From: a candidate division WOR-3 bacterium | GTDB lineage: Bacteria; Hydrothermota; Tepidihabitantia; Tepidihabitantales; JAOUPE01 | Assembly (NCBI GenBank): GCA_039801565.1 | Contig: JBDRUX010000001.1 | Coordinates: 51,403 to 115,402 of the forward strand | Length of the DNA stretch: 64,000 bases | Reading direction: 5' to 3' | Shown: positions 18,966 through 32,640 of the stretch, one piece after another | Layout: each line of letters starts with the position of its first letter | Position numbering within the stretch: position 1 is the first letter of the stretch | Notes under the pieces: model-generated | The model's database searches: none | What the model was told of the DNA's origin: nothing | What the model saw: the letters and a program-made list of their open reading frames with translations, nothing else | Position numbers and translations under genes: made by a program

Positions 18966-20630
18966 TTACTCCTTTTGCTCTTCACCGGTCAATCTTTTAT
19001 ATTTTAAGAATGCCTTTAATCCGTCATAAGCCAGAATAATTGCCGCAACGAATAAGACCAGTCCAATTATCCCAGCAAAATAATTACCGATAATTGAACT
19101 GGTGGACAATCCTTTTCCGGTTACATCCAATCTCGTTATCGCCTGGCGTAAAACTGAAATACTTGTATAAATTAAAGCACTCATTGTTGTCACATACATA
19201 AATATCATTGGGTAAAAGGTAAAACCGGTGGGTTTCTTTTGGCTAACCAGCCAGACCGAGGCAATCAGTAAGGCAAGGCTTGCCATCAATTGATTGGCTG
19301 AACCGAAAAGAACCCAGATATAATTAAAAGTCCCGGTATAGACCAGGACAAAAGATAAGATTAAGGCAATCAAAGTCCCCAAGATCGGATTTCTTAAAGC
19401 GGGTATCTTTTTGCCCAAAAGTTCATTGGTCGCAATCCGCATAAAACGAACTACCAGATGTAAAATCGTGATTGCCAAAACAACAATCATCACCGGTCCA
19501 TAAGCGTTACCCCAAGTCTTAGGCAAACCGATATAACTAAATATTTCACCCATCCCTTGCCCGAATAGGGTATGCCAGGCACCTTTAGCGGTAGTGACAC
19601 TGACGATTATCAAGGCGATTAAGGCGAGTATCATCTCAAGAAACATCGCACCGGCAGTGACAACCCGAGTATCGGTATCCTTTTCCAATTGCCGAGAAGT
19701 GCCTGTGGAAGAAACATTACTATGCCAACCTGAAATCGCGCCGCAGGCAATCGTCACAAATAGCATTGGCCAAAGCGGCAGCCCATCAGCATTAAAACTG
19801 GTGAAGGCCGGGGCTTTGAAATTAGGATGACCGATGATTATTCCTAAGATTGTGCCAATCATCCCGAATAGGATAATATAAAAACCGAGATAATTGACCG
19901 GTTGGACAAAGACCCAGATTGGTAAGACCGAGCCCAAAAAAGAGAAAAGCAAGGCAAAAATTAACCAGAGCATCTTATTTGCTTCTGGACTGGCTAAGGC
20001 GATTTGGATATGACTGCCGAAAAATAACGCAACATAAAAGATAACAAGCCCGATAATCGTAACCAGAATTAGATTGAATCTAACATAATAGATTAGAAAA
20101 CCGACAATCACACCAGCGATGCCAAGAAAGATTAGCGAAAAGGGGATATTGGGGTTATTAGCCATAAAAGTGGCTACCACATTGGCAAAGGCAGCAGCAA
20201 TTAGTAAGAGATAGAAATAGATAAAAGAGAGTAAAATGATTCGGGTGCGGGGCGAGATTAGAGAGTAAGATATTCCGCCAAAGGTCTTGCCGTCGTTACG
20301 CATTGAGACGATTGCGCTCGTATAATCCTGAATCCAACCGATGAAAAATGTCCCTAAAAGAATCCAGATTAATCCGGGTAGCCAGCCCCATTTGATAGCG
20401 ATGATTGGACCAAGCACCGGTGCTGCCCCAGCGATTGATTTGAACTGATAACCGAAAAGGATATTCTTTGAGGTTGGCATAAAATCAACCCCATCAGCAT
20501 AAAGTCGGGCTGGAGTCGCTCGTTTCGGGTCGGTCTGGATTACTTTTTTGTCATAATATTTGGCATAAATTTGGAACCCAAGATAATATACTATTATACC
20601 AAGGATAATCACAACTACTGAATTCATCAT
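18966..20630 (-). CDS. cstA: carbon starvation protein A family peptide/pyruvate transporter
   Basis: N-terminus (FGYQFKSIAGAAPVLGPIIA) and multi-TM architecture are typical of CstA. Confidence 0.85.
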   Translation of the reverse strand: MMNSVVVIILGIIVYYLGFQIYAKYYDKKVIQTDPKRATPARLYADGVDFMPTSKNILFGYQFKSIAGAAPVLGPIIAIKWGWLPGLIWILLGTFFIGWIQDYTSAIVSMRNDGKTFGGISYSLISPRTRIILLSFIYFYLLLIAAAFANVVATFMANNPNIPFSLIFLGIAGVIVGFLIYYVRFNLILVTIIGLVIFYVALFFGSHIQIALASPEANKMLWLIFALLFSFLGSVLPIWVFVQPVNYLGFYIILFGMIGTILGIIIGHPNFKAPAFTSFNADGLPLWPMLFVTIACGAISGWHSNVSSTGTSRQLEKDTDTRVVTAGAMFLEMILALIALIIVSVTTAKGAWHTLFGQGMGEIFSYIGLPKTWGNAYGPVMIVVLAITILHLVVRFMRIATNELLGKKIPALRNPILGTLIALILSFVLVYTGTFNYIWVLFGSANQLMASLALLIASVWLVSQKKPTGFTFYPMIFMYVTTMSALIYTSISVLRQAITRLDVTGKGLSTSSIIGNYFAGIIGLVLFVAAIILAYDGLKAFLKYKRLTGEEQKE

Positions 20631-21494
20631 TTAGAATTCTATAAATTTTTGTCCAAAAGTCAATCCACCCGAGTAAATCAAGTTGCTATTTTTCTTATCT
20701 TCACAATGAGAAAGGTCATCTTAAAATGAAGATTTGTATTTTGTGCGTGGTCAATAATTGAGTATCCAAGGTGATTAATCATCTTTTGAGGACCGCTCTT
20801 TGACAATTTGGTTTGTGTCTAATAAACCACTGCAACTCGTTAAAAAACTCCAACATCTTAACTTTCAATCAAAGGAGCAAAGCCCCTTTAAAACTCCAAT
20901 TCTTTTCTTAAATCCGAGGAGATGAGGGGTTTCCCCTCATCCACAAACTTGAAAGTTATCATTAGAATCAAAAGCAATATCGCCTATGACTTTCTTTACC
21001 TTCACATTGGGATGGAGTTACTTAAATATTGAGTAATCACCGAAGAAAATTGCTGAGTCTTGGATTCGTTACCTGAAACTACTTCGACGGCGATAGGAAA
21101 TGAGGAGGCTTTTACGCTAACCAAAATGAATCCCTTCATCACTATGAGCTCAATATGATTGGTTTTGGTTAGGGCAAAGATTTAAGTGACGAAGCTGTGG
21201 AAGAGTCGAAAGATTTTATCGTCTTTGCGGAGGTTCTTTTCGATAAAGAAAGTATTAGGTATGGGCAGGGGTTTTGAAATGTCTCACAGAAAATGAGAAA
21301 AAAGTGACAGACAAATCGGCGAAGCCGATTTAGAAAGAGAAAAAGAAAATTCCTTAAGAATTCGTTTCTTCTTTTAAACTTATTATACTCATTTAAATTT
21401 CCACGACTAATAGGGGACTACCAGAGCTAGTGGCTTATTTTATAATCTTTCATAAAGTTTTTGACAGTACCTTTAATTTGATAAAATCCGGCAA

Positions 21495-21545
21495 GCTTAA
21501 TACAAACGAAATCCCCTGCTTCCCGCCCGGAGCGGAAAGCAGGGG
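21495..21545 (-). terminator. putative rho-independent terminator after the Pro-rich repeat gene
   Basis: Stem cccctgctt / aagcagggg with a 15-nt loop, followed on the minus strand by a U-rich stretch. Confidence 0.4.
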
Positions 21546-21616
21546 TAAAGGATGGCTCCTGCTTATGCCTTCGATTTATTCATTAGCGAAAAGCAGATAG
21601 TGCGCCAACTTTAGCT

Positions 21617-21919
21617 TCAAGTGCTAATAGTCGGTGGAACCGGTTTCGGTGGCTGAGGAATACCATCCGGTGGCACCGGCTTCGGTGGTTGCGGAATACC
21701 ATCAGCAAAAATCAGAGGAGGTACGGGTTTAGGAGGTTGGGGAATACCATCGGTGTAAAGCCCCGGTGGAACCGGTTTCGGTGGCTGAGGAATACCATCC
21801 GGTGGCACCGGCTTCGGTGGTTGCGGAATACCATCAGCAATCACTGCGAAGACAGTGATCAGGAGCACAATCCATAAAAGCGCGGTAGTATGTCGCACAG
21901 AGCCTCCTTTCTTGGGCAT
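21617..21919 (-). CDS. small membrane-anchored protein with five tandem DGIPQPPKPVPP repeats
   Basis: N-terminal TM (ALLWIVLLITVFAVIA). A 36-nt tandem coding repeat, present 5 times. Confidence 0.55.
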   Translation of the reverse strand: MPKKGGSVRHTTALLWIVLLITVFAVIADGIPQPPKPVPPDGIPQPPKPVPPGLYTDGIPQPPKPVPPLIFADGIPQPPKPVPPDGIPQPPKPVPPTIST

Positions 21920-22085
21920 ACGCCCATTATTATTAATATCATTTCTAATTCCACCCGGTACTAATTTATAAGATGTTAATATTACAATTCTTAAAAAAAT
22001 AATGCAAATTTTTTAATTCTAACAATGAAAATAAAATTGTCGCACCGCTCAAAAAGTTTTATAAGTTTTGTATTATCAGTTAATT

Positions 22086-25000
22086 TTAAGAACTCTGGAA
22101 GTCTTCTTTATTGATATTATAACGTCGGAGCAATCGTTGAATTTGTCGCCGATGGGTGGAGAGCATTTGAGCAGCACGACTCACATTGCCTTGGGTGGCT
22201 TTGAGTGCTTCAATTACTTGTTCCCTCTCCAAACTTTTCTTTTGACCTTTCTCAATTTTCATCGTCTTTGCAAAATTAACAATTTTCGGACCGAGATTTT
22301 CTAAACTGATTTTTCGCTTTTGCGCCATTATCACTGCTCGTTCGATTACATTTTGCAGTTCTCGGACATTACCTGGCCAGGGATATTCGGTAAGAATTTG
22401 GGGAATGTTATCTTCAAAACCCAGAATCGGCTTATTGAGTTGTTTCGCATACCGTTTTAAAAAATATCCGGCTAATAGCATAATATCGCTTTTCCGCTCT
22501 CTTAACGGTGGCACCTGAATTGTTACAACATTCAAGCGATAATAAAGGTCTTCGCGAAACCGATTAGCTTTAACTTCTTCTTCAAGATTTTTGTTAGTGG
22601 CACAAATCAGTCGCACATCTACTCTTCTCGGTTCAGTTTCTCCCACCCGTCGAATAATCTTGTCCTCCAAGACCTCTAAAAGTTTTGCTTGGATACTTAA
22701 TGAGGTATTGGCAATCTCATCCATAAAAATTGTACCATGTTCAGCAATTTCGAATAAGCCTTCTTTGTCCCGAATCGCTCCGGTAAAAGCACCTTTGCAA
22801 TGCCCAAATAGTTCGGATTCAAATAGTGTTTCAGGCAATGTGCCGCAGTTGATTGAAACAAATTTGTTGGCACGTCGGTTACTATTGGCATGAATTAATC
22901 GAGCTAATACCCCTTTACCTGAACCAGTCTCACCTAATAATAGCACAGTACAATCAGTTGGAGCTATCTGTTCGATTATCGAATAGACATCCTTTATCGC
23001 TTTAGAACGTCCTAAAAAATAGCCAGTTACCGCATCGGTCAAAATATCCTCCCGCAGCGCGGAAAAATCCTCTTGCATCTTCTTGAAAGCAAAAGAGCGG
23101 TCAATAGTGGCAGCAAGAAGATTGGCTACCGAGATGAGTAAATTTTTGTCTTCTTCGACAAACACATTGGGATTGATTCGGGAATCAAGATAAATTGTCC
23201 CGATAACTTTATCATCAATCCGCAATGGTACACAGACTAAAGAACGAATTTTATTTAATACCACACTATTAGAATTAACAAACCTTGGGTCCGATAAAGC
23301 ATCAGCGCAAATTATCGGTTCCGCACGTTTTTTAACCTGACGAATCACAGTTCGCGAAATTGTATGTGCATCTTCTAAAGTGGTGTGGTCAACATTACGC
23401 GCCGCCACCGGGAATAACTTATCCCCTTGAATTAAGAAAAGAAGACCGCGCTCGGCCTGGGTTACATCAATGATTAAATCTAATAACCGGTCAGCAAAAT
23501 CCTCTTTCTCTAAGTCAAGATTAATTAATTCACTTAATTCATAGAAGACTTTTAAATATTCGCCACGCTCCCGCCCTTTTAATTTATGGGTTGCTTCAAG
23601 TTGACTAATATGATTTAACATATATCTCACCCTTTCTTGTTCAACTTTCGCTCCTAAACTTGTAAAAATTGTCTCAGCCTCTTTTAAATCATCCAATACC
23701 CGGGTAAGTTCCTGTTCCGATAATGGCTTGTAAGTAATTGGTAGGGGCTCGCCTTGGTTATAAGTTTTAGGTGCAGTAAGAAGTAACAGGCTTGCCTGGG
23801 CTTGGTAATAAAGCGATTTTGCCATTTCATATTTTGCACCTAAGCTCCGAAGAATCTCAATACTTCGATTCAATTCTTCTTTCCCATCATCCGTAAAACC
23901 AAGGGCATGTTTAGCTAATCCTCGCCACCGTAATAAAAGGGAGTATAGTCTCGGATTAGCATTATATGCTTGACCTTCTGCTGCTGGTAAAGTTAATAAA
24001 TTCTGAGCTCGTTCACAGGTGGTTAAACACTTAGACCAATCGGCTTCAGCCGCCCGTATCCCAGCTGCAGTTAAAAGCATTTCAATCAATTTCTGTTTAT
24101 TTCCTTTCGCATAAATTCTTTGCACATTAAGGGCAAGGGCAAGAGATTTAATTGCTGAATCTACTTGATCGCGCATCAAGTGTAATTTCGCCCAAGCTAA
24201 GTAAATTTGACCCAAAATTTGTTGATTTTTGTTCTGTTTGGTCAAATTTTCTGCTTCTTTAAGCAAAGGTTCAGCATCAATGAAGTCGCCTTTTTTCGTA
24301 AATAGATTAGCCAGATTAATTAGTCCGATGACCAACCCATTATCGTCCCTAATATTTTGCCGAATTTCGATATCCTTTTGGTAATAAGCGGTTGCTTTTT
24401 GCCAGTCCCCCATCTCTTCTAAGATAATACCTAGGTTACACAATGTATCACCCAATCCGGCTGAATCACCAATTTTTTCGCAGAGTTCTTTTGCTTCTTT
24501 AAAATATTCTAAGGCTTGATGCCAATCGCCAGTTTCAAAATCAACCAAACCAAGACCCTGAATGGTACGAATCCGAAAGTAAACATCGCTCAATTCCCAA
24601 AGTGGTGAGGATAGGATGGAAGAATAAGTTTCTTTTGCCTTATTTAATTCCCCTTTCTGCCAGTAGATTGTCGCTAAGAACTGACCAATTTTTCCCCGGA
24701 GATTGGACTTGGAAGAAATCCAGTTTGATTCTACTTCTTCTCGCGCAGGGGCTGGTTTCTCATATAATGCAAGACCACGATTCGCATATTCTAAGGCCAA
24801 ATCAATCTCCCCTTTATACCAGGCAAGGGCACTCATTCCATAAAGAGTTCGTGCCTTTAGGTCAACCAACGATTCGGAATTTTTTAAATCAATCGTTTTT
24901 AAGGCTAAAGAATAAAACTCCTCGGCTTTCTTAAAATCACCTTTAGCGGTTAACGACCAGCCGATGTCATTCCAAAGGGTTATTGTTCCAACTGCGTCTT

Positions 25001-27428
25001 TTTCTTTAAGGGTGGTGAGTGCTTGTTTGAAATAACTGATTGATTCATCTACTTTACCTTGTTTCTGATAGATTAGTCCTAATCGGCGCAAAACACTGGC
25101 TAATAGCGAAACATAGTTGGGTTCTCTTCTTAAGGTATTGTCGGAAAAGAGAATACCCAGTCCTTGAGTATAAATGTCAATGGCATCGGCAAAGCGTCCC
25201 GTGATTTCCCGCAAGCGCCCAACAGCTTCAATTAACTCAATCCGTTCTCGGGCTGATACAAAGTTGGATGATAAGGCAAGCGCAGTTTCATAAAAACCAA
25301 GTGCCAATTCTGTCAGATTTAATCTTTTTGCTTTGGCTCCTGCCTCACGACAATAGTTAAAAGCTCGATCTTTTATCCCAGCCTGGGTGTAGTGGTGAGC
25401 TAAATCAAAAAGGTAACGATCTTGTTCCCGCGGGTAAAGCAATTCGATTGCCAGGGCAACTGAGCGATGATAATCCCGTCTTTCTTGCACACTAATTCCT
25501 TCGGTAATAATCGCTTCTAAGGTCTTGGAGGATAAGACAAAACCATCCGAATCGGGTAGGGGGCGCAGTAAATTAATCGCCCGTAACCTTGAAAAAATTG
25601 AATAGAGGAGATGTTCCTCATAACCTAAAACCGCACGAACAAAATCAACTGTGAAAGGAGTTCCAGTAATCGCTCCCACCTTTAAAACTTCTAATTCTTC
25701 TCGAGTGAGAGTACTCAGTCGTTCTTTAATCAGCGAGTAGACAGTGTCTGGTAATTTGAAATCGCCTGATGTCAATCGGTTACGGTCTAATCTCCAACGA
25801 CCGTATTCCAATTGAATGACCTTGCTGGCCAAAAGGGAATAAAGCGATTCAATCACAAATAGTGGATTACCGCCGGTACTGGCAAAAAGCCAGGTGCTCA
25901 ACTCGGCGCTTGATGGATGAGGACCAAGAATTGCTTCCACTAAAAGTTGAGTCTCCTCTTGAGTTAGTGGACCAAGCGTAATGTGTTGAAAAAATTCTTT
26001 TCCCAAAAATTCTTTACTGAGTTCTAAAATTCTCCGCTCATTCAAACTGCTCACCACCACAAAAATTTTCTCCTTCTCAATGCTAAATCCTAAGAATCGG
26101 AGAAATTCGAGACTCATTGAATCAAATAATTCAAAATTATCAATCAGCAATAAAAGGCTGTGTTCAACCTTTGATGAATTAGCTAACGCTTTGAGCTTTT
26201 TTATTATTTCTTCAAATAATTCATATTTTGTTGCCTCGTCTTCCTGCTTTGCTACAATGTTTTTGATATCTTTACCATCATAAATTGATAAATTAGCTAA
26301 AATGTCTTCAATTAAAGATGGGGGGCGAGCACCTAATGCAGTATGAGCCGATTGTAAAATTGAAACACCTTCTAATTTAGCGAGAAATTTAAATTCTTGT
26401 AAAAGCCTACTTTTACCCACGCCGCGTTCCCCGGTGATAAAAACTAATTGTCCATTTGAACCTTTGGCTGATTCTAACCGGTTTCTAAGAACGTTTAACT
26501 CATTTTCTCGGCCAATAAAACTCGAAGCTTGAAGAGAAAAAACACCTTCTCCGCTTCGCCGAATGCCAATAGTCGGTATTTTTTCCTTTAAAGATTCTGG
26601 TATTATATCACTTATCGTCTCGATAACTTCTAAGGCAGAAATTGGACGCCGAAAAGCATCCCGTGCGAGTAAACGCATACAAAGGTTAGAAAACTTCTCG
26701 GGGATTTTGCTATCAATCTCACTTGGTGGCGCGAAGTTGGAATAATATTGAGTCCGTAGCCAATTCCGTAAATCTGTTTCGGTTGACGGTCCCCGACCGG
26801 TTAGGATTTCATAAATTACCATACCTAATGAGTATAGGTCAGCCCGACCATCCGCTTCGGTTCCCTTAAAAATTTCTGGTGCAATGTAACCAAGTGTTCC
26901 GCGTGGTATCTGATTGGAAGAAGAGAAATAATTAGCAAACCCAAAATCTAATAATTTGGCTCTTGCCTTGTTACCGGTGTCAGAGTCGATCGCCGTATTG
27001 ACCAGGATATTCTGAGGTTTCAAATCACAATGAATTAATCCCTGGCTGTGAATAGTATCTAAGGCATACAATATCTCAATCAACACTAATAATAAATCTT
27101 CGGAATATCCTTTAAAAAATTTGTTAATCGGCGCACCTGGAAAATATTCCATTGTAAAGAATGGCTTTCTTTCAGTTATCCCAAAATCGAAAGGTGCGAC
27201 AATATTCGGATGATTAAAGCGACTGAGCATGAAAAATTCTTGATTTAATTGATTCTCAATTTCTTTTGTCGCAGGTTCTCGGGAGATTTTTAGGGCTACG
27301 ATGCGGGCACCAACCAAATCCTTTGTTTTGTAAACCTCAGTTATTTCACCACCACCCAGATAATCTAAAACCTGATAACGGCCGGCAATTAAACTGCCGG
27401 TTTTAAAAGCACCCTCTTTTTGATTCAT
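22086..27428 (-). CDS. Giant multidomain regulator: Ser/Thr protein kinase + STAND/AAA ATPase + TPR array + GAF + sigma-54 activator (AAA+) + Fis-type HTH
   Basis: Kinase motifs HCDLKPQN, DFG and APE. A P-loop GERGVGKS follows the kinase. About 600 aa of TPR-like repeats. A GAF-like region. An EBP core with GETGSGKGVLARLIH and intact GAFTGA. A C-terminal HTH (NVSRAAQMLS). Confidence 0.8.
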   Translation of the reverse strand: MNQKEGAFKTGSLIAGRYQVLDYLGGGEITEVYKTKDLVGARIVALKISREPATKEIENQLNQEFFMLSRFNHPNIVAPFDFGITERKPFFTMEYFPGAPINKFFKGYSEDLLLVLIEILYALDTIHSQGLIHCDLKPQNILVNTAIDSDTGNKARAKLLDFGFANYFSSSNQIPRGTLGYIAPEIFKGTEADGRADLYSLGMVIYEILTGRGPSTETDLRNWLRTQYYSNFAPPSEIDSKIPEKFSNLCMRLLARDAFRRPISALEVIETISDIIPESLKEKIPTIGIRRSGEGVFSLQASSFIGRENELNVLRNRLESAKGSNGQLVFITGERGVGKSRLLQEFKFLAKLEGVSILQSAHTALGARPPSLIEDILANLSIYDGKDIKNIVAKQEDEATKYELFEEIIKKLKALANSSKVEHSLLLLIDNFELFDSMSLEFLRFLGFSIEKEKIFVVVSSLNERRILELSKEFLGKEFFQHITLGPLTQEETQLLVEAILGPHPSSAELSTWLFASTGGNPLFVIESLYSLLASKVIQLEYGRWRLDRNRLTSGDFKLPDTVYSLIKERLSTLTREELEVLKVGAITGTPFTVDFVRAVLGYEEHLLYSIFSRLRAINLLRPLPDSDGFVLSSKTLEAIITEGISVQERRDYHRSVALAIELLYPREQDRYLFDLAHHYTQAGIKDRAFNYCREAGAKAKRLNLTELALGFYETALALSSNFVSARERIELIEAVGRLREITGRFADAIDIYTQGLGILFSDNTLRREPNYVSLLASVLRRLGLIYQKQGKVDESISYFKQALTTLKEKDAVGTITLWNDIGWSLTAKGDFKKAEEFYSLALKTIDLKNSESLVDLKARTLYGMSALAWYKGEIDLALEYANRGLALYEKPAPAREEVESNWISSKSNLRGKIGQFLATIYWQKGELNKAKETYSSILSSPLWELSDVYFRIRTIQGLGLVDFETGDWHQALEYFKEAKELCEKIGDSAGLGDTLCNLGIILEEMGDWQKATAYYQKDIEIRQNIRDDNGLVIGLINLANLFTKKGDFIDAEPLLKEAENLTKQNKNQQILGQIYLAWAKLHLMRDQVDSAIKSLALALNVQRIYAKGNKQKLIEMLLTAAGIRAAEADWSKCLTTCERAQNLLTLPAAEGQAYNANPRLYSLLLRWRGLAKHALGFTDDGKEELNRSIEILRSLGAKYEMAKSLYYQAQASLLLLTAPKTYNQGEPLPITYKPLSEQELTRVLDDLKEAETIFTSLGAKVEQERVRYMLNHISQLEATHKLKGRERGEYLKVFYELSELINLDLEKEDFADRLLDLIIDVTQAERGLLFLIQGDKLFPVAARNVDHTTLEDAHTISRTVIRQVKKRAEPIICADALSDPRFVNSNSVVLNKIRSLVCVPLRIDDKVIGTIYLDSRINPNVFVEEDKNLLISVANLLAATIDRSFAFKKMQEDFSALREDILTDAVTGYFLGRSKAIKDVYSIIEQIAPTDCTVLLLGETGSGKGVLARLIHANSNRRANKFVSINCGTLPETLFESELFGHCKGAFTGAIRDKEGLFEIAEHGTIFMDEIANTSLSIQAKLLEVLEDKIIRRVGETEPRRVDVRLICATNKNLEEEVKANRFREDLYYRLNVVTIQVPPLRERKSDIMLLAGYFLKRYAKQLNKPILGFEDNIPQILTEYPWPGNVRELQNVIERAVIMAQKRKISLENLGPKIVNFAKTMKIEKGQKKSLEREQVIEALKATQGNVSRAAQMLSTHRRQIQRLLRRYNINKEDFQSS

Positions 27429-27436: not shown

Positions 27437-27464
27437 ATTATACTAAAAATTTTATATTTGTCAA
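27437..27464 (-). promoter_or_regulatory. sigma-70-like promoter (TTGACA-N16-TATAAT) placing the TSS at or next to the start codon of the giant regulator
   Basis: Minus-strand reading: ttgacaaatataaaatttttagtataat. The ATG is at 27428. A 7-bp inverted repeat TGCGACA-N6-TGTCGCA lies at 27473-27492, just upstream. Confidence 0.45.
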
Positions 27465-27557
27465 CAATAAAGTGCGACAGATGTTTGTCGCATTTAGAAA
27501 TGCTATGTTTTATCAATTTAAATAGTTAAAATAATCTATGTAGGGGAGAATATAGAA

Positions 27558-27631
27558 TGGGCCGTGCAGGACTCGAACCTGCGGCCACCGGATTAAAAAT
27601 CAGGTGCTCTACCAGCCTGAGCTAACGGCCC
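27558..27631 (-). tRNA. tRNA-Lys (anticodon UUU)
   Basis: Reverse complement GGGCCGTTAGCTCAGGCTGGTAGAGCACCTGATTTTTAATCCGGTGGCCGCAGGTTCGAGTCCTGCACGGCCCA. The 7-bp acceptor stem, D arm and T arm (GCAGG/CCTGC) pair correctly. Anticodon loop TT-TTT-AA. One T-C mismatch occurs in the anticodon stem. Confidence 0.8.
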
Positions 27632-27721
27632 ATTGAGATTTTTTATATAGATTTTACTCAGGTTAAAACTTGCACTCATTTTACTGAAAAGTTATTTTAT
27701 TGTCAATAATAAACATCCCCC

Positions 27722-28969
27722 TTAACTTTTTGTTAATGCCTGGTCTAAATCTTTAATAATATCATTAACATTTTCAATACCTACCGAGAGTCGTACCAAA
27801 TCGTCGGTAATCCCCGCAGCGATGCGATCTTTAGGGCTAAGGTGAAAGTGGGTCATTGAGGCTGGGTGTTCGATAAGGGTCTCGACACCCCCTAAGCTTA
27901 CTGCAAGAGTGCAGAGTTGAACGTTATTCATTAGGGATTTGGCAGCTTTAAAACCACCTTTTAGACCAAAGCTTATCATCCCGCCGCCTGCCTTCATTTG
28001 TTTTTTTGCAACCGAATGATGGGGATGGCTTTTAAGCCAGGGGTAGCGAACCCATTTCACCTTGGGATGGTCTTGAAGATAATTAGCGACTTTTAAAGCG
28101 TTAAAAGAATGACGCTCCATCCTTAATGCCAAGGTTTTGATTCCACGATGCACTAAGAAGGCTTGCAGAGGGTCAATAATGCCACCGGTGTCATTTAAGA
28201 CGGTTCGTAACTTATCGAATAGGCCTTGGTCTTTTACGACAATCATTCCAGCCACAACATCAGCGTGGCCGTTAAGATATTTGGTCATACTGTGAATTAC
28301 AATGTCAGCACCTAATTCTAAGGGTTTTTGGATGATTGGAGAACAGAATGTATTATCCACTACCAAAATAATTTTATTGGAGGAGTTTGAGGCTAATCGA
28401 GCGATTGCTGAAATATCGGAAATCGCTAAGGTCGGGTTAGCAGGTGTCTCGAGGAAGATGAGTCTGGTGTTTGACTTTATAGCATTTTGACACTCTTTTA
28501 AAGAAGAGGTGTCTACGGGTGATATCTCAACACCGAATTTGGTTAGGATATTTTTTAAAAGACTTGTAGTGGCACCATAGAGGACGTTACCGCAAATTAC
28601 GTGGTCGCCTTGGCTTAGCAGTGTCTGAAAAACTGTGTTGATTGCAGCCATACCGCTGGCACAAGCTAATGCGCCGACCCCATTTTCTAAACTGGCAACA
28701 CAGTCTTCAAGGGTCTTGATCGTTGGGTTGCCGAGTCGGGTATAGATATAACCTTTTTGGGTACCTTGAAAGATTTTTACCCCTTGGTTAACATTTTTGA
28801 ATCGAAAGGTTGATACTTGATAGATAGGTGGCACTACCGCACCATATGCGTCCTGCATCCCACCGGCGTGAACAGTTAAAGTATCAATAGCGAGCTTGGA
28901 AATTTTGTTGCAATTTGGTTTATGGTGTTTGATTGTACGGATTTTGTTGGTTTTAGGCTTTTTTTTCAT
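27722..28969 (-). CDS. Cys/Met-metabolism PLP-dependent enzyme (methionine gamma-lyase / cystathionine gamma-synthase family)
   Basis: Trans-sulfuration family features: IDTLTVHAGG, GMAAINT, and a PLP-lysine context (VIHSMTKYLNGH). The Lys-rich N-terminal extension suggests the true start may be internal. Confidence 0.8.
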   Translation of the reverse strand: MKKKPKTNKIRTIKHHKPNCNKISKLAIDTLTVHAGGMQDAYGAVVPPIYQVSTFRFKNVNQGVKIFQGTQKGYIYTRLGNPTIKTLEDCVASLENGVGALACASGMAAINTVFQTLLSQGDHVICGNVLYGATTSLLKNILTKFGVEISPVDTSSLKECQNAIKSNTRLIFLETPANPTLAISDISAIARLASNSSNKIILVVDNTFCSPIIQKPLELGADIVIHSMTKYLNGHADVVAGMIVVKDQGLFDKLRTVLNDTGGIIDPLQAFLVHRGIKTLALRMERHSFNALKVANYLQDHPKVKWVRYPWLKSHPHHSVAKKQMKAGGGMISFGLKGGFKAAKSLMNNVQLCTLAVSLGGVETLIEHPASMTHFHLSPKDRIAAGITDDLVRLSVGIENVNDIIKDLDQALTKS

Positions 28970-29046
28970 CTGAGAATTATAAAGGTTAAATTTTATTGAG
29001 TCAAGGTCTGGATTTAGCTGTTAAATATTGGTCATTTGTTGTTGGA

Positions 29047-30924
29047 CTAAAAACTAATTCGGATGGTTTGGTTCGGTTTAATTTTTTTTATTAATATAGT
29101 ATAACTTTGATTACCTTCATCATAATACCAATTTAATGATTGCTCATCGGGAGATTTGAAAAAGTTCAAGTGGTTCGAGGTAAAAACTTGAAGGGCGATA
29201 TCGGTGGATATACTACCGCTGTGATTGGTTAGGATTAAATTGAACCGTGGAGTATCCGATGATAGGTTCAAGGGTTCAAGAGATTTAAGAGATTCAAGGG
29301 TAAGTTCTAAGTTTAAGAGGTTATGCCACCATTGGACAAATTCCTGTCCAGTAGTAAGCCAAGTCTTCTTATTTTTAATGTAATCAATCAGTTCGGCGAT
29401 AATCGGATAATAGGTTGGGTTGGCCAGAATCTGAGTATGATAGACGAGAAGGTAGTAACTGCCCAAGTCATAGAGGCGTTCGAACTCTTCTTTCAACTCC
29501 TGTAGAACTGCCTGAGGATTTTGCATCGAATCTCGAAAAAAGATATCGTAATCGTCGCGGTTTGGCTTAGCAATAATCATAAAATCATTATAATTGCTTC
29601 TTGAAATCTTGGGGGCCAAGTAATTTCCTTCGGCTATCGCTTCTAATAAATATTTCAGACCAATTTTATTAAGGGCTCGAATCGTATTAAAATCGTAACT
29701 GCCATAGGGTGGTCGAAACCCAACAATTTTTTGACGGCTGATTTTTTCTAAACACCGCTTGGCTTGGGCTAATTTTTTTAATTGCAACTCGTAAGATAGA
29801 CCTGCTGGCTCGGTGTGGTGGTCGCCGTGCAATCCAATTTCGCCATTTTGCACCATCATTTTCACAAAAGAGGCTCTGGATTTAGCTAAACTGGCAAGAA
29901 GAAAAAAAGAACCCTTAACATTTTTAGCTTCGAGGATTTTTATTACATTTTGGACATTGTCAAAATCTTGTTCGATGTCGCCACAGATGATTGCGCAAGC
30001 TCGATAATCAAAGGGCCAGGGTTTTATTTGGACTAATGGGTTTTTCGTTACCCATAGTAATGCATTGGTGAACAGTTTTTGTGCAAAAATTTGACTTTGG
30101 TTATCGCCAGTAATCAAATTTTTGTTGAAGCCAAACCAGACGAACCTTCCATTGGCATAGTAACCGTGACATAGGGCGACACTATTTTTAAAATCCTTGG
30201 CTGTACCACCAAAATCAATCGGCGGATTACACCAGTATCCATCGGGAATAGTCCGGGTTTCGATTATTCGGGCTCGAATCCGTCCAAAACCGGTTGTACC
30301 AATTTTAGCACCTAAAGGAAGTCCGATGCTTAAAGGTGAATTGGATTTGATAGTTAAGGGAAAATATTCCGGATGAATTTCAGTGATTTTAGTAATACCG
30401 ATGATACGATTGAGAAGGGAAATTTTTCGAACCCTACCTTTTTCATCCATTGCTCCACAATCACCAAACGCTATCAATCCGCCGCCACGCTCTAAGAATT
30501 CGGTTATAGACTCAATTGCCGCCTCGGAAAGTTGAGAAATTCCCGGTAAGATTAAAACAGTGAAATCATTAAGTCTTTGGTTAAGGGCAAAAACATTTAA
30601 TGTGCTAACTTGAACATTCTGGTTAGAGGAAAAATCGAGCCAGTCGGATAGATTAGCCATTGCGTTCGTATCTTCAACATTCGGAAGTAAAATACCAATC
30701 CGGGCTGTAATTGATGGTAAATTAACTTTTGGCATAGCCGGTAGAATGGTTTGGTTTTGCTCGGAGAGAGTATCGGTTTTCGTTTCTGGGATTTTTCTGC
30801 CACCGGCAAAAATGGCATTGAGCTCGCCGCGAACAAGTAAAAGCGTAAAGTAATATGCCAAAAAACTGCAGGATAGAATAAAAGCACCTAAGATAAAAAT
30901 GGTTAATAAGTTAATTTTTCGCAT
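29047..30924 (-). CDS. membrane-anchored polysaccharide deacetylase family protein (PgaB-like)
   Basis: N-terminal TM. A CE4/NodB-like segment (CGDIEQDF ... GLHGDHH). Last gene of the pga-like operon. Confidence 0.5.
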   Translation of the reverse strand: MRKINLLTIFILGAFILSCSFLAYYFTLLLVRGELNAIFAGGRKIPETKTDTLSEQNQTILPAMPKVNLPSITARIGILLPNVEDTNAMANLSDWLDFSSNQNVQVSTLNVFALNQRLNDFTVLILPGISQLSEAAIESITEFLERGGGLIAFGDCGAMDEKGRVRKISLLNRIIGITKITEIHPEYFPLTIKSNSPLSIGLPLGAKIGTTGFGRIRARIIETRTIPDGYWCNPPIDFGGTAKDFKNSVALCHGYYANGRFVWFGFNKNLITGDNQSQIFAQKLFTNALLWVTKNPLVQIKPWPFDYRACAIICGDIEQDFDNVQNVIKILEAKNVKGSFFLLASLAKSRASFVKMMVQNGEIGLHGDHHTEPAGLSYELQLKKLAQAKRCLEKISRQKIVGFRPPYGSYDFNTIRALNKIGLKYLLEAIAEGNYLAPKISRSNYNDFMIIAKPNRDDYDIFFRDSMQNPQAVLQELKEEFERLYDLGSYYLLVYHTQILANPTYYPIIAELIDYIKNKKTWLTTGQEFVQWWHNLLNLELTLESLKSLEPLNLSSDTPRFNLILTNHSGSISTDIALQVFTSNHLNFFKSPDEQSLNWYYDEGNQSYTILIKKIKPNQTIRISF

Positions 30925-30944
30925 CGGTTATCTTATTAATATTT

Positions 30945-31238
30945 TCATTTCCACTCGGGACGAGATTCTTTTGGCTCTTTTGGCTGGTAACGGCGAAGGA
31001 GCGAGGGTGATTTGGGTTCTGTCGGTGGAGGCTGAGCAATTTCGGTCGTTGGTGCTTCATTAACTCTTGGTTTCGTTTCTTCAACCGGAGTTGGCTCAAT
31101 TCTTACTTCGGCAATTGGTTGTTTTGGACTTGCCCGTTTTCTCATCTTATAGACAATGTAGGCTAAAATCCCTAAAAATAAGGTGAGAACCGTAACTGCC
31201 AAAATGATTGTTGATAAAATTGTAATGACGACATTCAT
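30945..31238 (-). CDS. small single-TM protein with Pro-rich tail (possible PgaD-like accessory)
   Basis: N-terminal TM helix. Lies between the GT2 and deacetylase genes with short gaps. Confidence 0.3.
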   Translation of the reverse strand: MNVVITILSTIILAVTVLTLFLGILAYIVYKMRKRASPKQPIAEVRIEPTPVEETKPRVNEAPTTEIAQPPPTEPKSPSLLRRYQPKEPKESRPEWK

Positions 31239-31260
31239 ACCAGCTCCTTCTTAACAGTTT

Positions 31261-32640
31261 TCATAACACCTTCACGCCATTAATTCGACCATTCCGCTCT
31301 AACTTATCCCAACTCATACCAAGACTTAAGAATTCTTCAACCGTAGCCAAGACTTTGATAATATCAATAATTAAGATAAAGAATAAGCGATAGGGCACAG
31401 CACAAAGGACAAGATTCGTTGCTTCTTTTTCACAGGCAACACAAAACAGAGCTGCCATCATATCTAAGGCTAAGAGTTGTAACCACCAAAAGACAATTAA
31501 AGGTGAAAAACCAAAGCTTAAGGCGATGACAATGAAGAATAGGTGGGCAAAAATATTCATCGCGGGCCAAAGGATTGCTTCATAAATCATTTGCCAAAAT
31601 ACTAAGGTCGCGGCAAAATTAATTTTAGGGTTGAAAAGAATATTTTTATGTTTTCGAATTGATTGGATGATGCCACGGGTCCAGCGATAACGTTGTTTGA
31701 CCAAATCAAGCCAATTTTCAGGCACTTCGGTAAAGGCACAAGCCTCGGGTTCGTATTGGACCTGAAAGCCCGCCCTTAAGATTTTTAAAGTGACATCACA
31801 GTCCTCGGCAGAGGTATCCGAGGAGTAATGTCCAACCACATCTAAGACAGAACGGCGGAAAAAACCAATCGGTCCTGGAACAATATTCACTAAGCCAAAT
31901 AATCCCTGGGCGCGTCGCGGCATATTTAGTCCTTCAACATATTCTAAACCTTGTAGCACCGAGACCAATTTTTGCCGGTTTACCGCTTTAACATTTCCAG
32001 CTACTGCTCCGACTTTTGGGTTTTGAAAGTGACGAATCCCTTGCCGCAGCGCTTCGGGATTAACCAAACTGTCACCATCCACGCAGACAATGAATTCACC
32101 CTGAGCGGAGTCTAAACCATAGTTAAGTGCCTTTGCCTTGCCACCATTGGGTTTTGAAAGCACCAAAACTTTGGGTTTAGTGGGAAGGGTGGAAGTAATC
32201 CGCTCCAGTCGCTCTTTAGTATCATCAGTTGAACCATCATCAATTATGATTATCTCATAATTTGGATAATCAAGATTTAAAAGAGAATGAACGACAGATT
32301 CAATCACTTTGCCTTCATTGTAGACCGGTACTAAAATCGAAACCAACGGTAAATCATCAATTTTCTCTTTCGGCAAAATTTCCGGTGGTAGGCTACTGGT
32401 GTGGTGAAGATAAGCGAAAATCAAAATGAAAAAATAGCGAAGAAGCAACATAATCAAAAAGGCAAGTAGCACAACTGTCAAAGCAAGAATAAAGGTTGTG
32501 CCAAAAGCCAGAGCTGACCGTTGGTGAAAATGATAAGTGAGAAAGCCAAAAAGCAGACATAAGACTAAAAGCAAAATAAACCACAAACCATATCTGGTTT
32601 TGTTCATTTCGCTTCGTCTAAGCAAAGTTTTTGATTGCAT
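31261..32640 (-). CDS. family-2 processive beta-glycosyltransferase (PgaC/IcaA/NodC-like)
   Basis: DDGSTD and DGD motifs. QRYRWTRG (QxxRW) motif. Flanking TM helices. Confidence 0.8.
   Translation of the reverse strand: MQSKTLLRRSEMNKTRYGLWFILLLVLCLLFGFLTYHFHQRSALAFGTTFILALTVVLLAFLIMLLLRYFFILIFAYLHHTSSLPPEILPKEKIDDLPLVSILVPVYNEGKVIESVVHSLLNLDYPNYEIIIIDDGSTDDTKERLERITSTLPTKPKVLVLSKPNGGKAKALNYGLDSAQGEFIVCVDGDSLVNPEALRQGIRHFQNPKVGAVAGNVKAVNRQKLVSVLQGLEYVEGLNMPRRAQGLFGLVNIVPGPIGFFRRSVLDVVGHYSSDTSAEDCDVTLKILRAGFQVQYEPEACAFTEVPENWLDLVKQRYRWTRGIIQSIRKHKNILFNPKINFAATLVFWQMIYEAILWPAMNIFAHLFFIVIALSFGFSPLIVFWWLQLLALDMMAALFCVACEKEATNLVLCAVPYRLFFILIIDIIKVLATVEEFLSLGMSWDKLERNGRINGVKVL

What the first reader, a model, noticed from the sequence alone, without database searches (positions are those of the whole stretch)
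22086..27428. Single 1780-aa polypeptide joining a Ser/Thr kinase, STAND ATPase, TPR array, GAF domain and a complete sigma-54 activator with HTH
All of these signatures are directly readable in the translation: HCDLKPQN/DFG/APE, then GERGVGKS, then about 600 aa of TPR, then a GAF-like region, then GETGSGKG...GAFTGA...HTH. Bacterial enhancer-binding proteins are normally driven by REC, GAF, PAS or V4R input domains. Here a eukaryotic-like kinase and a MalT/PknK-like STAND module sit upstream of the sigma-54 ATPase in one chain. This would couple phosphorylation and oligomerisation sensing directly to sigma-54 open-complex formation. A TTGACA-N16-TATAAT promoter places the TSS next to the ATG, so the mRNA is leaderless, and a TGCGACA-N6-TGTCGCA operator lies just upstream. 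The nearest co-oriented downstream gene is a small membrane protein of (DGIPQPPKPVPP)5 repeats, a candidate target, but I could not find a TGGCAC-N5-TTGC sigma-54 promoter in front of it.
Basis: partly seen in the sequence, partly recalled or inferred. Interest (0 to 1): 0.8.

Follow-up and report, generated by a model that had tools for sequence, protein, structure and literature searches.

The report
Kinase–STAND sigma-54 activator with proline-peptide partner
A real 1780-residue regulator from an uncultured WOR-3 bacterium joins a protein kinase, a MalT-like molecular switch and a sigma-54 activator, and across its relatives it is always followed by a tiny proline-rich peptide gene that it very probably switches on.

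Summary
ORF 22086-27428 (-) encodes 1780 aa with Pkinase, AAA_16/STAND, TPR, GAF, Sigma54_activat and HTH_8. All catalytic motifs are intact.

It is not an assembly chimera. 115 of the 120 best database hits are 1550-1940 aa and share these domains, at 30-70% identity. They come from WOR-3 and allied candidate phyla.

The perfect TTGACA-N16-TATAAT promoter, its fixed 8-nt distance to the ATG, and the TGCGACA-N6-TGTCGCA element are all conserved in orthologous loci.

The new finding concerns the downstream gene. In about 20 orthologous loci the big gene is followed by TGCGACA/TGTCGCA sites. About 90 nt further on lies a canonical -24/-12 sigma-54 promoter. About 55 nt after that lies a 16-25 aa micro-ORF (for example MDGIPIPPRPGPLGPP), or a signal-peptide protein carrying 2-5 copies of the same unit. 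The window's (DGIPQPPKPVPP)5 gene is that partner.

In the window's low-GC clade the positionally homologous promoter reads TGGAATTAGAAATGAT. The -12 GC has become GA, so sigma-54 dependence here is probable but not shown.

Best reading: a STAND switch with a TPR sensor, with a kinase and a GAF-EBP as outputs. It appears to be autoregulated and to activate its partner peptide gene. No biochemistry exists for any of this.

Verdict: a new variant of known kinds, with moderately high interest.

The parts
22086..27428 (-). Complete ORF, 1780 aa: kinase, STAND, TPR, GAF and sigma-54 EBP in one chain
   Evidence: A 100% identical protein, P0001, is annotated 'sigma 54-interacting transcriptional regulator [candidate division WOR-3 bacterium]'.
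26643..27377 (-). Hanks-type Ser/Thr kinase domain (aa 18-262)
   Evidence: Pfam Pkinase, E 4e-41. K47, H133-x-D135-x-K137, D161-F-G and A-P-E are invariant or nearly so in 115 homologues; N140 is N in 79 and H in 36.
25533..26519 (-). STAND nucleotide-binding oligomerisation domain: NBD, helical domain and winged helix (aa about 304-632)
23589..25526 (-). Arm plus TPR-type helical repeat sensor (aa about 635-1280; Pfam-supported for 777-1104)
23103..23504 (-). GAF domain (aa 1309-1442)
   Evidence: Pfam GAF, E 1e-14. NCBIfam NifA and NorR models align from aa about 1293.
22266..23015 (-). Sigma-54 interaction AAA+ domain plus lid (aa 1472-1721)
   Evidence: Pfam Sigma54_activat, E 6e-70, and AAA_lid_14. 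Walker A, GAFTGA, Walker B DE and the R-finger are conserved in 115 homologues.
22119..22232 (-). Fis-type HTH_8 DNA-binding domain (aa 1733-1770)
   Evidence: Pfam HTH_8, E 2e-7. The helix 'THRRQ(L/I)QRL' is conserved in all loci that carry TGTCGCA sites. It differs in L030, which has different upstream repeats.
27437..27464 (-). Sigma-70-type promoter TTGACA-N16-TATAAT, with its -10 ending 8 nt before the ATG (leaderless or near-leaderless mRNA)
   Evidence: 12/12 match. The hexamers and the 8-nt spacing are invariant in L001 and L002. The same layout with GTG starts occurs in high-GC orthologues.
27473..27492 (-). TGCGACA-N6-TGTCGCA element, 8 nt upstream of the -35; inferred autoregulatory binding site
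   Evidence: The arms are invariant in L001 and L002 although the distance to the tRNA differs by more than 100 nt. Of the 18 orthologous loci printed, 14 carry two TGTCGCA/TGCGACA heptamers just upstream of the -35 (12 as direct repeats) and L006 carries one. L014, L015 and L022 have only a distal TGCGACA.
22038..22044 (-). TGCGACA site 42 nt after the stop codon and 91 nt upstream of the -24/-12-like element; inferred enhancer (UAS)
   Evidence: It is aligned in L001, L085 and L086. Sites lie at -89 to -95 and/or -52 to -65 from the sigma-54 promoter in 14 loci.
21938..21953 (-). TGGAATTAGAAATGAT: positional homologue of the sigma-54 promoter, with -24 GG kept and -12 GC changed to GA
   Evidence: It is invariant as TGGwATTrGAnnTGwT in five low-GC loci. 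It differs from the canonical L036 promoter TGGCATTAGAAATGCT by two C-to-A changes. The distances are the same: 91 nt from the site and 55 nt to the start codon.
21617..21898 (-). Small gene: signal peptide plus five DGIPQPPKPVPP units (93 aa from the GTG start)
   Evidence: The units differ by 4-8 synonymous and 0 non-synonymous codons. Orthologues occur in L001, L002, L085 and L086. Single-unit micro-ORFs occupy this position in high-GC loci.
21513..21545 (-). Strong intrinsic terminator after the small gene
   Evidence: 15-bp stem with 10 GC pairs and a T-tail.

Best explanation
The locus is a two-gene regulatory module of candidate division WOR-3.

Gene 1 encodes a cytoplasmic STAND-type switch:
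- A MalT-like nucleotide-binding oligomerisation domain (NOD) is gated by a long TPR sensor.
- It carries two effector ends. One is an N-terminal, catalytically competent Hanks Ser/Thr kinase, as in PknK. The other is a C-terminal NifA/NorR-like GAF-AAA+-HTH sigma-54 enhancer-binding module.

Inferred mechanism:
- Ligand binding to the TPR array lets the NOD exchange ADP for ATP and multimerise.
- Multimerisation brings the kinase domains together for trans-phosphorylation. It also raises the local concentration of the AAA+ domains, so that they form the ring that remodels the sigma-54 holoenzyme.
- The GAF domain adds a second, small-molecule checkpoint.

Through its unusual HTH (THRRQLQRL) the protein binds TGTCGCA heptamers at two places. 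One is next to the -35 of its own leaderless sigma-70 promoter, giving autoregulation. The other is about 90 bp upstream of the promoter of gene 2.

Gene 2 encodes a proline-rich peptide unit, DGIPxPPxPxPP. The unit occurs either as a 16-25 aa micro-ORF or, as in this window, as 3-5 tandem units behind a signal peptide. In most relatives gene 2 has a canonical -24/-12 promoter. In the window's clade the -12 GC is GA or GT, so activation may be weaker or leakier.

Shown here: the domains, motifs and fold, plus the conservation and enrichment of the sites, the promoter and the peptide gene.
Inferred: who binds TGTCGCA, sigma-54 dependence in this clade, the order of events, and the ligand.
For: - Domains and residues.
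- Not chimeric: 115 of the 120 best hits are at least 1550 aa, at 30-70% identity, from many independent assemblies. A further 26 genome loci carry a complete ORF of more than 1500 aa containing GAFTGA.
- Own promoter: the layout is conserved.
- Downstream module: 16 of 21 loci have a promoter with at most 2 mismatches within 600 nt, and 8 of 21 have at most 1 mismatch. The density is 0.64/kb against 0.013/kb elsewhere. Geometry is regular: the promoter lies 150-170 nt after the stop in most loci, sites lie at about -90 and -55 to -65, and the start codon follows 47-65 nt later in most loci.
- Motif specificity: TGTCGCA/TGCGACA occurs at 4.05/kb in the flanks against 0.09/kb in 284 kb of surrounding DNA.
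- HTH co-variation: the HTH helix co-varies with the motif.
- The peptide ORF is under selection as a protein: 5 synonymous and 0 non-synonymous differences between L015 and L022, and 8 versus 0 between units in the window. The Shine-Dalgarno sequence is conserved.
- The organism uses canonical sigma-54 promoters: a perfect TGGCACAAATTTTGCA precedes a histidine kinase/REC-EBP operon in the same window.
- STAND logic, with effector domains at either end, a repeat sensor and inducer-driven multimerisation, is described in PMC4381067 and PMC6468293.
Against: - No experiment exists for any family member.
- In the window's clade all five loci lack the near-universal -12 GC, reading TGA or TGT. An AT-rich -10-like hexamer follows the element.
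- rpoN itself is not in the window.
- Binding of TGTCGCA by this protein is inferred only from co-occurrence and HTH co-variation.
- Site orientation and spacing vary: inverted with N5/6 or N3, or direct with 14-38 nt periods. This is unusual for a single dimeric HTH.
- Sites upstream of a -35 do not reveal whether autoregulation is positive or negative.
- Some loci (L014, L015, L022) lack the promoter-proximal pair at gene 1 and instead have the sites before smpB.
- The kinase substrate is unknown. Most of the peptides contain no Ser or Thr.
Confidence: 0.6

Rival explanations
1. In the window's low-GC clade the repeat-protein gene has escaped sigma-54 control. It is transcribed by sigma-70, or constitutively, and the EBP module acts on other, unseen targets elsewhere in the genome.
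For: All five clade members have TGw instead of TGC at -12, and A or T instead of C at -24. An A/T-rich -10-like hexamer lies 14-17 nt downstream (TATAAT in L001). No other GG-N10-GC promoter precedes the gene.
Against: The TGG-N9-TG block is invariant in five loci whose surroundings diverge. In contrast, its spacing to the -10-like hexamer varies from 14 to 17 nt. It sits at exactly the homologous position, 91 nt after TGCGACA and 55 nt before the start codon. It differs from the bona fide L036 promoter at only two bases. L088 shows another TGGCAT-N5-TTGAT in front of a small ORF next to a family member.
Confidence: 0.25
2. TGTCGCA is the site of a different transcription factor, or a lineage-specific promoter element. 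Its presence at both genes would then say nothing about this protein's DNA specificity.
For: There is no binding data. Orientation and spacing are heterogeneous. In L014, L015 and L022 the sites precede the sigma-70 promoter of smpB.
Against: The motif is enriched 45-fold around this gene pair compared with 284 kb of flanking DNA. It is therefore not a general promoter element. It persists from 40% GC to 68% GC genomes, and in L089 at 31% protein identity. The HTH recognition helix is conserved wherever the motif occurs, and it differs in L030, whose upstream repeats differ. No other regulator gene is conserved in the neighbourhood.
Confidence: 0.12
3. The palindrome at 27473-27492 is simply the intrinsic terminator of the tRNA-Lys gene 64 nt upstream.
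For: The scan flags it as terminator-like: a 7-bp stem, a 6-nt loop, then CTTTATTGTT. tRNA-Lys lies directly upstream on the same strand. The loop length varies between 5 and 6 nt.
Against: The distance to the tRNA differs by more than 100 nt between orthologues, whereas the distance to the -35 is fixed. The arms show no compensatory changes. In most high-GC orthologues the two heptamers are direct repeats that cannot form a hairpin, yet the proximal one keeps its position a few nt from the -35 (7-8 nt where measured). The same heptamer recurs at the downstream gene. A dual role in this clade is not excluded.
Confidence: 0.07
4. The micro-ORF is not translated. The sigma-54 transcript would be a small regulatory RNA, or a leader whose polyproline codons merely sense translation or EF-P status.
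For: The ORFs are very short (16-25 aa) and are absent from gene calls. Polyproline runs are known ribosome-stalling sequences (established knowledge). smpB, the ribosome-rescue gene, follows the peptide gene in 10 loci. In the window the transcript ends at a strong terminator.
Against: A conserved Shine-Dalgarno sequence (AACGGAGG or AAGGAGG) lies at the correct distance. Differences between orthologues and between repeat units are synonymous only. The same unit is fused in frame behind Sec-type signal peptides, and is multiplied, in at least eight of the loci examined. This only makes sense for a protein product. No Rfam family matches.
Confidence: 0.1
5. The long ORF is an assembly or frameshift artefact that joins a kinase-STAND gene to a GAF-EBP gene.
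For: Some database entries contain only the kinase-STAND-TPR part (P0092-P0096). Most sit on short contigs and at least one is labelled 'partial'.
Against: 115 of the 120 best hits are 1550-1940 aa, and the listed full-length hits align over 95-100% of the query. They come from NCBI, JGI, ENA and Logan assemblies. A further 26 genome loci have an uninterrupted frame. There is no composition break across the gene.
Confidence: 0.01

Closest known systems
MalT (E. coli) and the MalT-like STAND transcription activators
   Different: MalT uses a LuxR-type HTH and activates sigma-70 promoters by recruitment, and it has no kinase. Here the output is a GAF-AAA+ sigma-54 remodelling ATPase, so two different oligomerising ATPases sit in one chain.
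PknK (M. tuberculosis) and other Ser/Thr-kinase STANDs, including the TOMM kinase/cyclase fusion family TIGR03903
   Same: An N-terminal Hanks kinase is followed by AAA_16 and repeats. PknK is cited as a kinase-type STAND in PMC4381067. TIGR03903 matches with E 5.6e-49.
   Different: The TIGR03903 score of 167 is far below its cut-off of 706, and there is no cyclase. Neither of those families carries a sigma-54 activator or a DNA-binding domain. That PknK lacks an EBP module is stated from memory.
GAF-type bacterial enhancer-binding proteins (NifA, NorR, FhlA)
   Same: The C-terminal 490 aa align end to end with the NifA and NorR models as GAF, AAA+ with GAFTGA, and HTH_8.
   Different: The scores are below the equivalog cut-offs (374 against 529 for NifA, and 368 against 476 for NorR). 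About 1290 extra N-terminal residues are present. The HTH helix THRRQLQRL and the TGTCGCA site are unlike the NifA TGT-N10-ACA site (the NifA site is quoted from memory).
RNPP, Rgg and AimR peptide-receptor regulators (PlcR-PapR, NprR-NprX, Rap-Phr, arbitrium)
   Different: Those are small sigma-70-type regulators or phosphatases of Firmicutes and their phages. Here peptide binding is untested, TPR similarity is generic, and most of the peptides lack an export signal.
Myxobacterial links between Ser/Thr kinases and sigma-54 activators (FHA-domain EBPs)
   Same: Both couple Hanks-kinase signalling to enhancer-binding proteins. This is recalled from Jelsbak et al. 2005 and Perez et al. 2008, which were not retrievable here.
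   Different: In those systems the kinase and the EBP are separate proteins that communicate through FHA domains. Whether direct kinase-EBP fusions were noted there could not be checked.

Membership tests
Bacterial enhancer-binding protein (sigma-54 activator, AAA+) | Sigma54_activat AAA+ domain with Walker A, Walker B (DE) and an arginine finger | tested here: met
   PF00158, E 6e-70, full length 2-168/168. GETGSGKG, FMDEI and RxDVR are conserved in 115 homologues.
Bacterial enhancer-binding protein (sigma-54 activator, AAA+) | GAFTGA loop that contacts sigma-54 | tested here: met
   GAFTGA lies at aa 1546-1551. F, T and the final A are conserved in at least 112 of 115 homologues.
Bacterial enhancer-binding protein (sigma-54 activator, AAA+) | C-terminal HTH that binds upstream activating sequences about 80-150 bp from a -24/-12 promoter | tested here: inconclusive
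   HTH_8 is present. TGCGACA/TGTCGCA sites lie at -52 to -95 from canonical promoters in relatives. Binding has not been shown.
Bacterial enhancer-binding protein (sigma-54 activator, AAA+) | ATP-dependent activation of E-sigma54 open-complex formation | not testable with these tools
   This needs in vitro transcription. rpoN is not in the window, although a perfect TGGCACAAATTTTGCA promoter and a REC-EBP are.
Sigma-54-dependent promoter (for the window's small gene) | GG at -24 and GC at -12, spaced by 10 nt | tested here: not met
   The window element reads TGGAATTAGAAATGAT. GG is present but GC is replaced by GA. The positional homologues in relatives do meet this criterion.
Hanks-type Ser/Thr protein kinase | Catalytic Lys (VAIK), alpha-C Glu, HxDxKxxN catalytic loop, DFG and APE | tested here: met
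   K47, E64, H133/D135/K137/N140, D161-F-G and A183-P-E are present. K, H, D, K, DFG and PE are invariant or nearly so in 115 homologues, and N140 is N or H. The Gly-rich loop is atypical (GGGxxT).
Hanks-type Ser/Thr protein kinase | Phosphotransfer activity | not testable with these tools
   This needs an autophosphorylation assay.
STAND NTPase (MalT clade) | NOD made of a P-loop NBD, a helical domain and a winged-helix domain | tested here: met
STAND NTPase (MalT clade) | C-terminal repeat sensor following an arm domain | tested here: met
   TPR_12 and TPR_MalT hits. The model is helical-repeat from aa about 635 onward.
STAND NTPase (MalT clade) | Inducer-triggered multimerisation | not testable with these tools
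   This is inferred from family behaviour (PMC4381067, PMC6468293).
NifA / NorR equivalogs | A score above the NCBIfam equivalog cut-off | tested here: not met
   TIGR01817 scores 374.2 against 528.85, and NF003451 scores 367.8 against 476.
TOMM kinase/cyclase fusion (TIGR03903) | A score above the cut-off, and a C-terminal cyclase | tested here: not met
   The score is 166.9 against 705.75, and no cyclase domain is present.
RNPP-type peptide quorum-sensing pair | An adjacent small peptide gene under control of the TPR receptor | tested here: inconclusive
   Adjacency and an inferred regulatory link are conserved in about 20 loci. Control is inferred, not shown.
RNPP-type peptide quorum-sensing pair | The mature peptide binds the TPR groove of its receptor | not tested
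   No multimer modelling or binding assay was available.

The most novel reading that the evidence does not exclude
The proline-rich unit DGIPxPPxPxPP is the cognate ligand of the TPR sensor. The pair would then form a peptide-based autoinduction or feedback circuit. This would be an RNPP-like peptide signalling system outside the Firmicutes, read out through a STAND switch that fires a Ser/Thr kinase and a sigma-54 activator at the same time. The signal-peptide, multi-copy forms, as in this window, would be secreted pro-peptides that release several signal units. The 16-25 aa forms would act inside the cell or leave by another route.
Probability: 0.22. Interest if true: 0.82.

Novelty: new variant of a known kind. 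Interest (0 to 1): 0.62.

Why it matters
Sigma-54 activators are normally gated by receiver, PAS, GAF or V4R domains. Here the AAA+ remodelling ATPase is subordinated to a second oligomerising ATPase, a MalT-like STAND, that also carries a eukaryote-type kinase. A single ligand-sensing event could therefore produce both a transcriptional and a phosphorylation output.

Comparative genomics supplies what is usually missing for regulators of uncultured phyla:
- a predicted DNA motif (TGTCGCA);
- a predicted direct target with canonical -24/-12 promoters in relatives;
- a conserved, previously uncatalogued family of proline-rich micro-peptides. Only two database homologues of the window's form exist, and it has no Pfam family.

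This makes the system directly testable in vitro with E. coli sigma-54 holoenzyme. It also raises the possibility of peptide signalling in WOR-3.

Tried and rejected
- Chimera or frameshift artefact: rejected.
- Palindrome as a tRNA-Lys terminator only: rejected as the main explanation.
- Canonical sigma-54 promoter before the window's small gene: none found. The only nearby hit with at most 2 mismatches, TGGCGCACTATCTGCT at 21592-21607, lies after the gene's stop codon.
- Sigma-70 reading of the conserved TGG block as a -35: disfavoured by the variable 14-17 nt spacing.
- Extra TGCGACA copies at 21891, 27195 and 27267: judged to be coding coincidences. The first is not conserved in orthologues, and 27267 is an Ala-Thr codon pair shared with L001.
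- Other copies of the peptide unit elsewhere in the window: none.
- Anti-phage defence reading: PADLOC gives only generic kinase and EBP domain hits, and the locus has stable chromosomal synteny.
- Rfam: only the tRNA is found.
- Resemblance of the peptides to insect proline-rich antimicrobial peptides (oncocin and apidaecin, sequences recalled from memory): considered and set aside, because the bacterial units are net-neutral rather than strongly cationic.
- Peptide as kinase substrate: unlikely, because most units contain no Ser or Thr.
- Literature: seven full-text searches found no description of a kinase-STAND-EBP fusion. Perez et al. 2008 and Bush & Dixon 2012 were not held, so prior mention of such fusions in myxobacterial kinome surveys cannot be excluded.
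- One look-up (P0020) found no contig.
Full report
**Observation.** The window contains an uninterrupted ATG-initiated ORF at 22086-27428 on the minus strand, 1780 aa long. Pfam finds, in order:
- Pkinase (aa 18-262, E 4e-41)
- AAA_16/nSTAND1 (aa 304-447, E 3e-24)
- a long series of TPR_12, TPR_2 and TPR_MalT hits (aa about 777-1104)
- GAF (aa 1309-1442)
- Sigma54_activat (aa 1472-1638, E 6e-70)
- AAA_lid_14 and HTH_8 (aa 1733-1770)

NCBIfam aligns the last roughly 490 residues end to end with NifA and NorR, but the scores are below both equivalog cut-offs. Base composition shows no break across the gene.

**Not a chimera, and not rare.** A search of the protein collection returned an identical protein annotated only as 'sigma 54-interacting transcriptional regulator [candidate division WOR-3 bacterium]'. 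Of the 120 best hits, 115 are 1550-1940 aa long and share these domains, at 30-70% identity. The full-length hits align over 95-100% of the query. They come from NCBI, JGI, ENA and Logan assemblies. Where named, they are WOR-3, Stahlbacteria or Edwardsbacteria, plus one 'Theionarchaea' bin that is probably mis-binned.

In an alignment of the 115 long homologues the following are invariant or nearly so:
- kinase K47, H133-x-D135-x-K137, DFG and APE
- STAND Walker A, and Walker B (DD in most, DN in this clade)
- EBP Walker A, GAFTGA, Walker B DE and the arginine finger

All three enzymatic modules are therefore under selection as active units. A scan of species-representative genomes with the N-terminal 700 aa gave 26 further loci with an uninterrupted ORF of more than 1500 aa containing GAFTGA. 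Nearly all are WOR-3, and one is Latescibacterota.

**Fold of the middle part.** An AlphaFold model of aa 290-1000 has pLDDT 87.3 and pTM 0.82. It shows an alpha/beta P-loop domain, a helical domain, a winged helix and then helical repeats.
- The best Foldseek PDB hit is the TPR-sensor STAND protein PH0952 (6mfv, E 7e-15), followed by Apaf-1 and MalT.

Membership of the MalT-like STAND class is therefore supported by both sequence and fold. The TPR similarity to peptide receptors is generic and is only a lead.

**Promoter, leaderless start and 'operator'.** The scan finds TTGACA-N16-TATAAT at 27464-27437, a 12/12 match, with the -10 ending 8 nt before the ATG. No Shine-Dalgarno sequence is present. 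Orthologous loci L001 and L002, at about 65% protein identity, keep several features:
- the upstream Cys/Met PLP-enzyme gene and a tRNA-Lys(UUU);
- both hexamers, invariant, and the 8-nt spacing, even though the spacer sequence differs;
- the TGCGACA-N5/6-TGTCGCA arms, invariant.

The distance from the palindrome to the tRNA differs by more than 100 nt between these loci. High-GC orthologues (59-68% GC, 47-52% identity) have the same TTGAC(A/C)-N17-TATAAT layout followed by 5-8 nt and a GTG or ATG start. Of the 18 orthologous loci printed, 14 carry two TGTCGCA/TGCGACA heptamers just upstream of the -35 (12 as direct repeats, which cannot form a hairpin), and L006 carries one. The proximal copy sits a few nt from the -35, 7-8 nt where measured. 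L014, L015 and L022 lack this pair and have only a distal TGCGACA.

The element is therefore a sequence-specific site tied to the promoter, and not just the tRNA terminator that the scan suggested. Leaderless organisation is real but ordinary in this genome. The Cys/Met gene (-10 at 28976, ATG at 28969) and cstA (-10 at 20636, ATG at 20630) are built the same way, as is smpB in relatives.

**The downstream gene is a conserved partner.** The window's small gene most likely starts at GTG 21898, behind AAGGAGG. It encodes a signal-peptide-like N-terminus and five exact DGIPQPPKPVPP units. The units differ by 4-8 synonymous and no non-synonymous codons. It has no Pfam family and only two database homologues.

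The low-GC orthologues L001, L002/L005, L085 and L086 have the same gene with 3-4 units. I scanned 1.5 kb downstream of the stop codon in 26 loci, and the pattern was regular:
- The sigma-54 promoter lies 150-170 nt after the stop in most loci.
- TGCGACA/TGTCGCA sites lie at -89 to -95 and/or -52 to -65 relative to that promoter.
- Three promoters match perfectly: L014 TGGCACCAATATTGCT, L019 TGGCACGATAATTGCA and L025 TGGCACCGTAGTTGCT. Five more have one mismatch.
- In most loci a Shine-Dalgarno sequence and an ORF follow 47-65 nt later.

The ORF is either a 16-25 aa micro-ORF or a signal-peptide protein with 2-3 units.
- Micro-ORFs include MDGIPIPPRPGPLGPP, MDGIPILPRPRPITGPPR, MDGPIVPILPPPKPAPPGK, MPVFGIPIPPRPGPVAPPVR and MMGTPFPIPPMPLPITPPPY.
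- Signal-peptide forms with 2-3 units occur in L006, L011 and L027.

Enrichment is strong:
- Promoters with at most 1 mismatch occur at 0.64/kb in the 600 nt downstream, against 0.013/kb elsewhere. 16 of 21 loci have one with at most 2 mismatches.
- The heptamer occurs at 4.05/kb in the gene's flanks, against 0.09/kb in 284 kb of surrounding sequence.
- L015 and L022 encode the same peptide with five synonymous differences.

A relative at 31% identity (L089) has three TGCGACA-N3-TGTCGCA palindromes, AGGCACGGTTTTTGCA, and a signal-peptide ORF ending in GGTIPRPPPPSPN. More distant relatives use other repeats and other downstream targets: L030 has a 62-aa ORF and L087 a T9SS-tailed protein. The HTH helix THRRQLQRL is conserved in every TGTCGCA locus, and it differs in L030, whose upstream repeats differ.

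**The window's own promoter.** The window has TGGAATTAGAAATGAT (21953-21938) at the homologous position, 91 nt after TGCGACA (22044-22038) and 55 nt before the GTG. All five low-GC loci share TGGwATTrGAnnTGwT. The bona fide L036 promoter TGGCATTAGAAATGCT differs only by two C-to-A changes. The GG is kept, but the near-universal -12 GC is GA or GT. The defining feature of a sigma-54 promoter is therefore not met here.

Two observations favour a derived sigma-54 promoter over a sigma-70 one. The TGG-N9-TG spacing is invariant, whereas the distance to the following A/T-rich hexamer varies from 14 to 17 nt. This remains unproven. The organism does use canonical promoters: a perfect TGGCACAAATTTTGCA (13488-13503) precedes a histidine kinase/REC-EBP operon in the same window.

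**Mechanism proposed.** STANDs are described in PMC4381067 and PMC6468293. By that logic the repeat domain is the sensor, the NOD is an ADP/ATP-controlled multimerisation switch, and the effector domains sit at the protein ends. Applied here:
- The TPR array is the input, with the GAF domain as a second input.
- The N-terminal kinase and the C-terminal AAA+-HTH are two outputs.
- Multimerisation would promote kinase trans-phosphorylation and assembly of the sigma-54-activating ring on the TGTCGCA enhancer.
- This would switch on the peptide gene, while sites next to the regulator's own -35 give autoregulation of unknown sign.

The domains, motifs, fold and comparative patterns are shown. DNA binding, sigma-54 dependence, the order of events and the ligand are inferred.

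The peptides mostly lack Ser and Thr, so they are unlikely to be kinase substrates.

**What the peptide does is open.** The arrangement of a TPR receptor gene followed by a small peptide gene under its control is that of the PlcR-PapR, NprR-NprX, Rgg-SHP and arbitrium systems. This suggests the peptide could be the TPR ligand. I give that about 0.2. Alternatives are a secreted or periplasmic effector, or a polyproline translation-stalling leader. The stalling idea is prompted by smpB following the peptide gene in ten loci, with TGTCGCA sites before smpB in three of them. However, the signal-peptide and multi-unit forms, together with synonymous-only variation, argue for a functional peptide.

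**Comparison with known systems, and novelty.** The parts are all known kinds: a Hanks kinase, a MalT/PknK-type STAND, and a NifA/NorR-type GAF-EBP. Kinase-STAND fusions with other outputs exist, for example PknK and the TIGR03903 kinase/cyclase family. The combination with a sigma-54 activator is present in public databases in over a hundred clusters, but only under generic names. Seven full-text searches found no description of it. Two likely sources were not available. I therefore rate it a new variant of a known kind. The conserved TGTCGCA sites and the sigma-54-driven proline-rich micro-peptide partner are the really new pieces.

**Limits.** Everything rests on sequence comparison among uncultured genomes. 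rpoN is not in the window. aa 1000-1290 were not modelled. Site orientation is heterogeneous. No expression data were examined.

Noticed in passing
window 27557-27632 (-): A tRNA-Lys(UUU) gene sits between the Cys/Met PLP-enzyme gene and the big ORF, with its own TTGACA-N17-TAAAAT promoter (27706-27678). This synteny is conserved in L001, L002, L085 and L086.
   Followed up: yes
window 13488-13503 (-), with genes 10887-13346 and 9478-10884 (-): A perfect sigma-54 promoter, TGGCACAAATTTTGCA, lies 142 nt upstream of a histidine kinase with FG-GAP repeats, followed by a classical REC-AAA+-HTH_8 activator. This is probably an autoregulated two-component operon.
   Followed up: partly
window 28969-29004 and 20630-20663 (-): The Cys/Met PLP-enzyme gene and cstA also have strong -35/-10 promoters ending 5-6 nt before their ATG. 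Leaderless mRNAs therefore seem common in this genome. smpB in relatives (L003, L010, L014 and others) is built the same way.
   Followed up: partly
window 21592-21607 (-): A -24/-12-like sequence, TGGCGCACTATCTGCT, lies right after the stop codon of the repeat-protein gene and about 45 nt before the strong terminator at 21545-21513. It may be chance or a very short transcript.
   Followed up: no
window 20631-21512: About 880 nt between the terminator and cstA contain no ORF longer than 56 aa and no Rfam match. This could be a decayed gene or unannotated RNA.
   Followed up: partly
L014 15538-15690; L015 10375-10470; L022 15938-16030: In one high-GC subclade two or three TGTCGCA sites sit just upstream of the -35 of smpB, the ribosome-rescue factor, which follows the peptide gene. 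These loci lack the promoter-proximal pair at the regulator gene. smpB follows the peptide gene in ten loci overall.
   Followed up: partly
window 29047-35862 (-): A cluster resembling an exopolysaccharide (PNAG-like) system lies upstream. It comprises a polysaccharide deacetylase (29047-30924), a family-2 glycosyltransferase (31261-32640), a TPR protein (32642-34498) and a KaiC/RecA-like ATPase (34504-35862).
   Followed up: no
window 44923-46383 (-) and 46400-50100: dnaA lies next to a low-GC (35-38%), ORF-poor stretch, probably the replication origin. It is followed by a giant 2833-aa ORF (50667-59168, +) and by T9SS-tailed proteins.
   Followed up: no
window 14663-17134 (-): Two ArsA/Get3-like ATPase genes flank a PD-(D/E)XK nuclease-family gene (15695-16126).
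   Followed up: no
L087 309-3842 (+): In a distant relative (P0113) the kinase-EBP gene is directly preceded by a guanylate-cyclase-AAA_16-TPR STAND gene. Two STAND regulators with different outputs therefore sit side by side. Its target, behind a perfect TGGCACAAAACTTGCT promoter, is a 575-aa T9SS-tailed protein.
   Followed up: partly
P0108: A full-length family member is labelled 'Theionarchaea archaeon DG-70'. A sigma-54 activator in an archaeal bin is most likely a binning error.
   Followed up: no
L016 and L028 (both from MAG CAZAKP01): One genome carries two paralogues of the regulator on different contigs.
   Followed up: no
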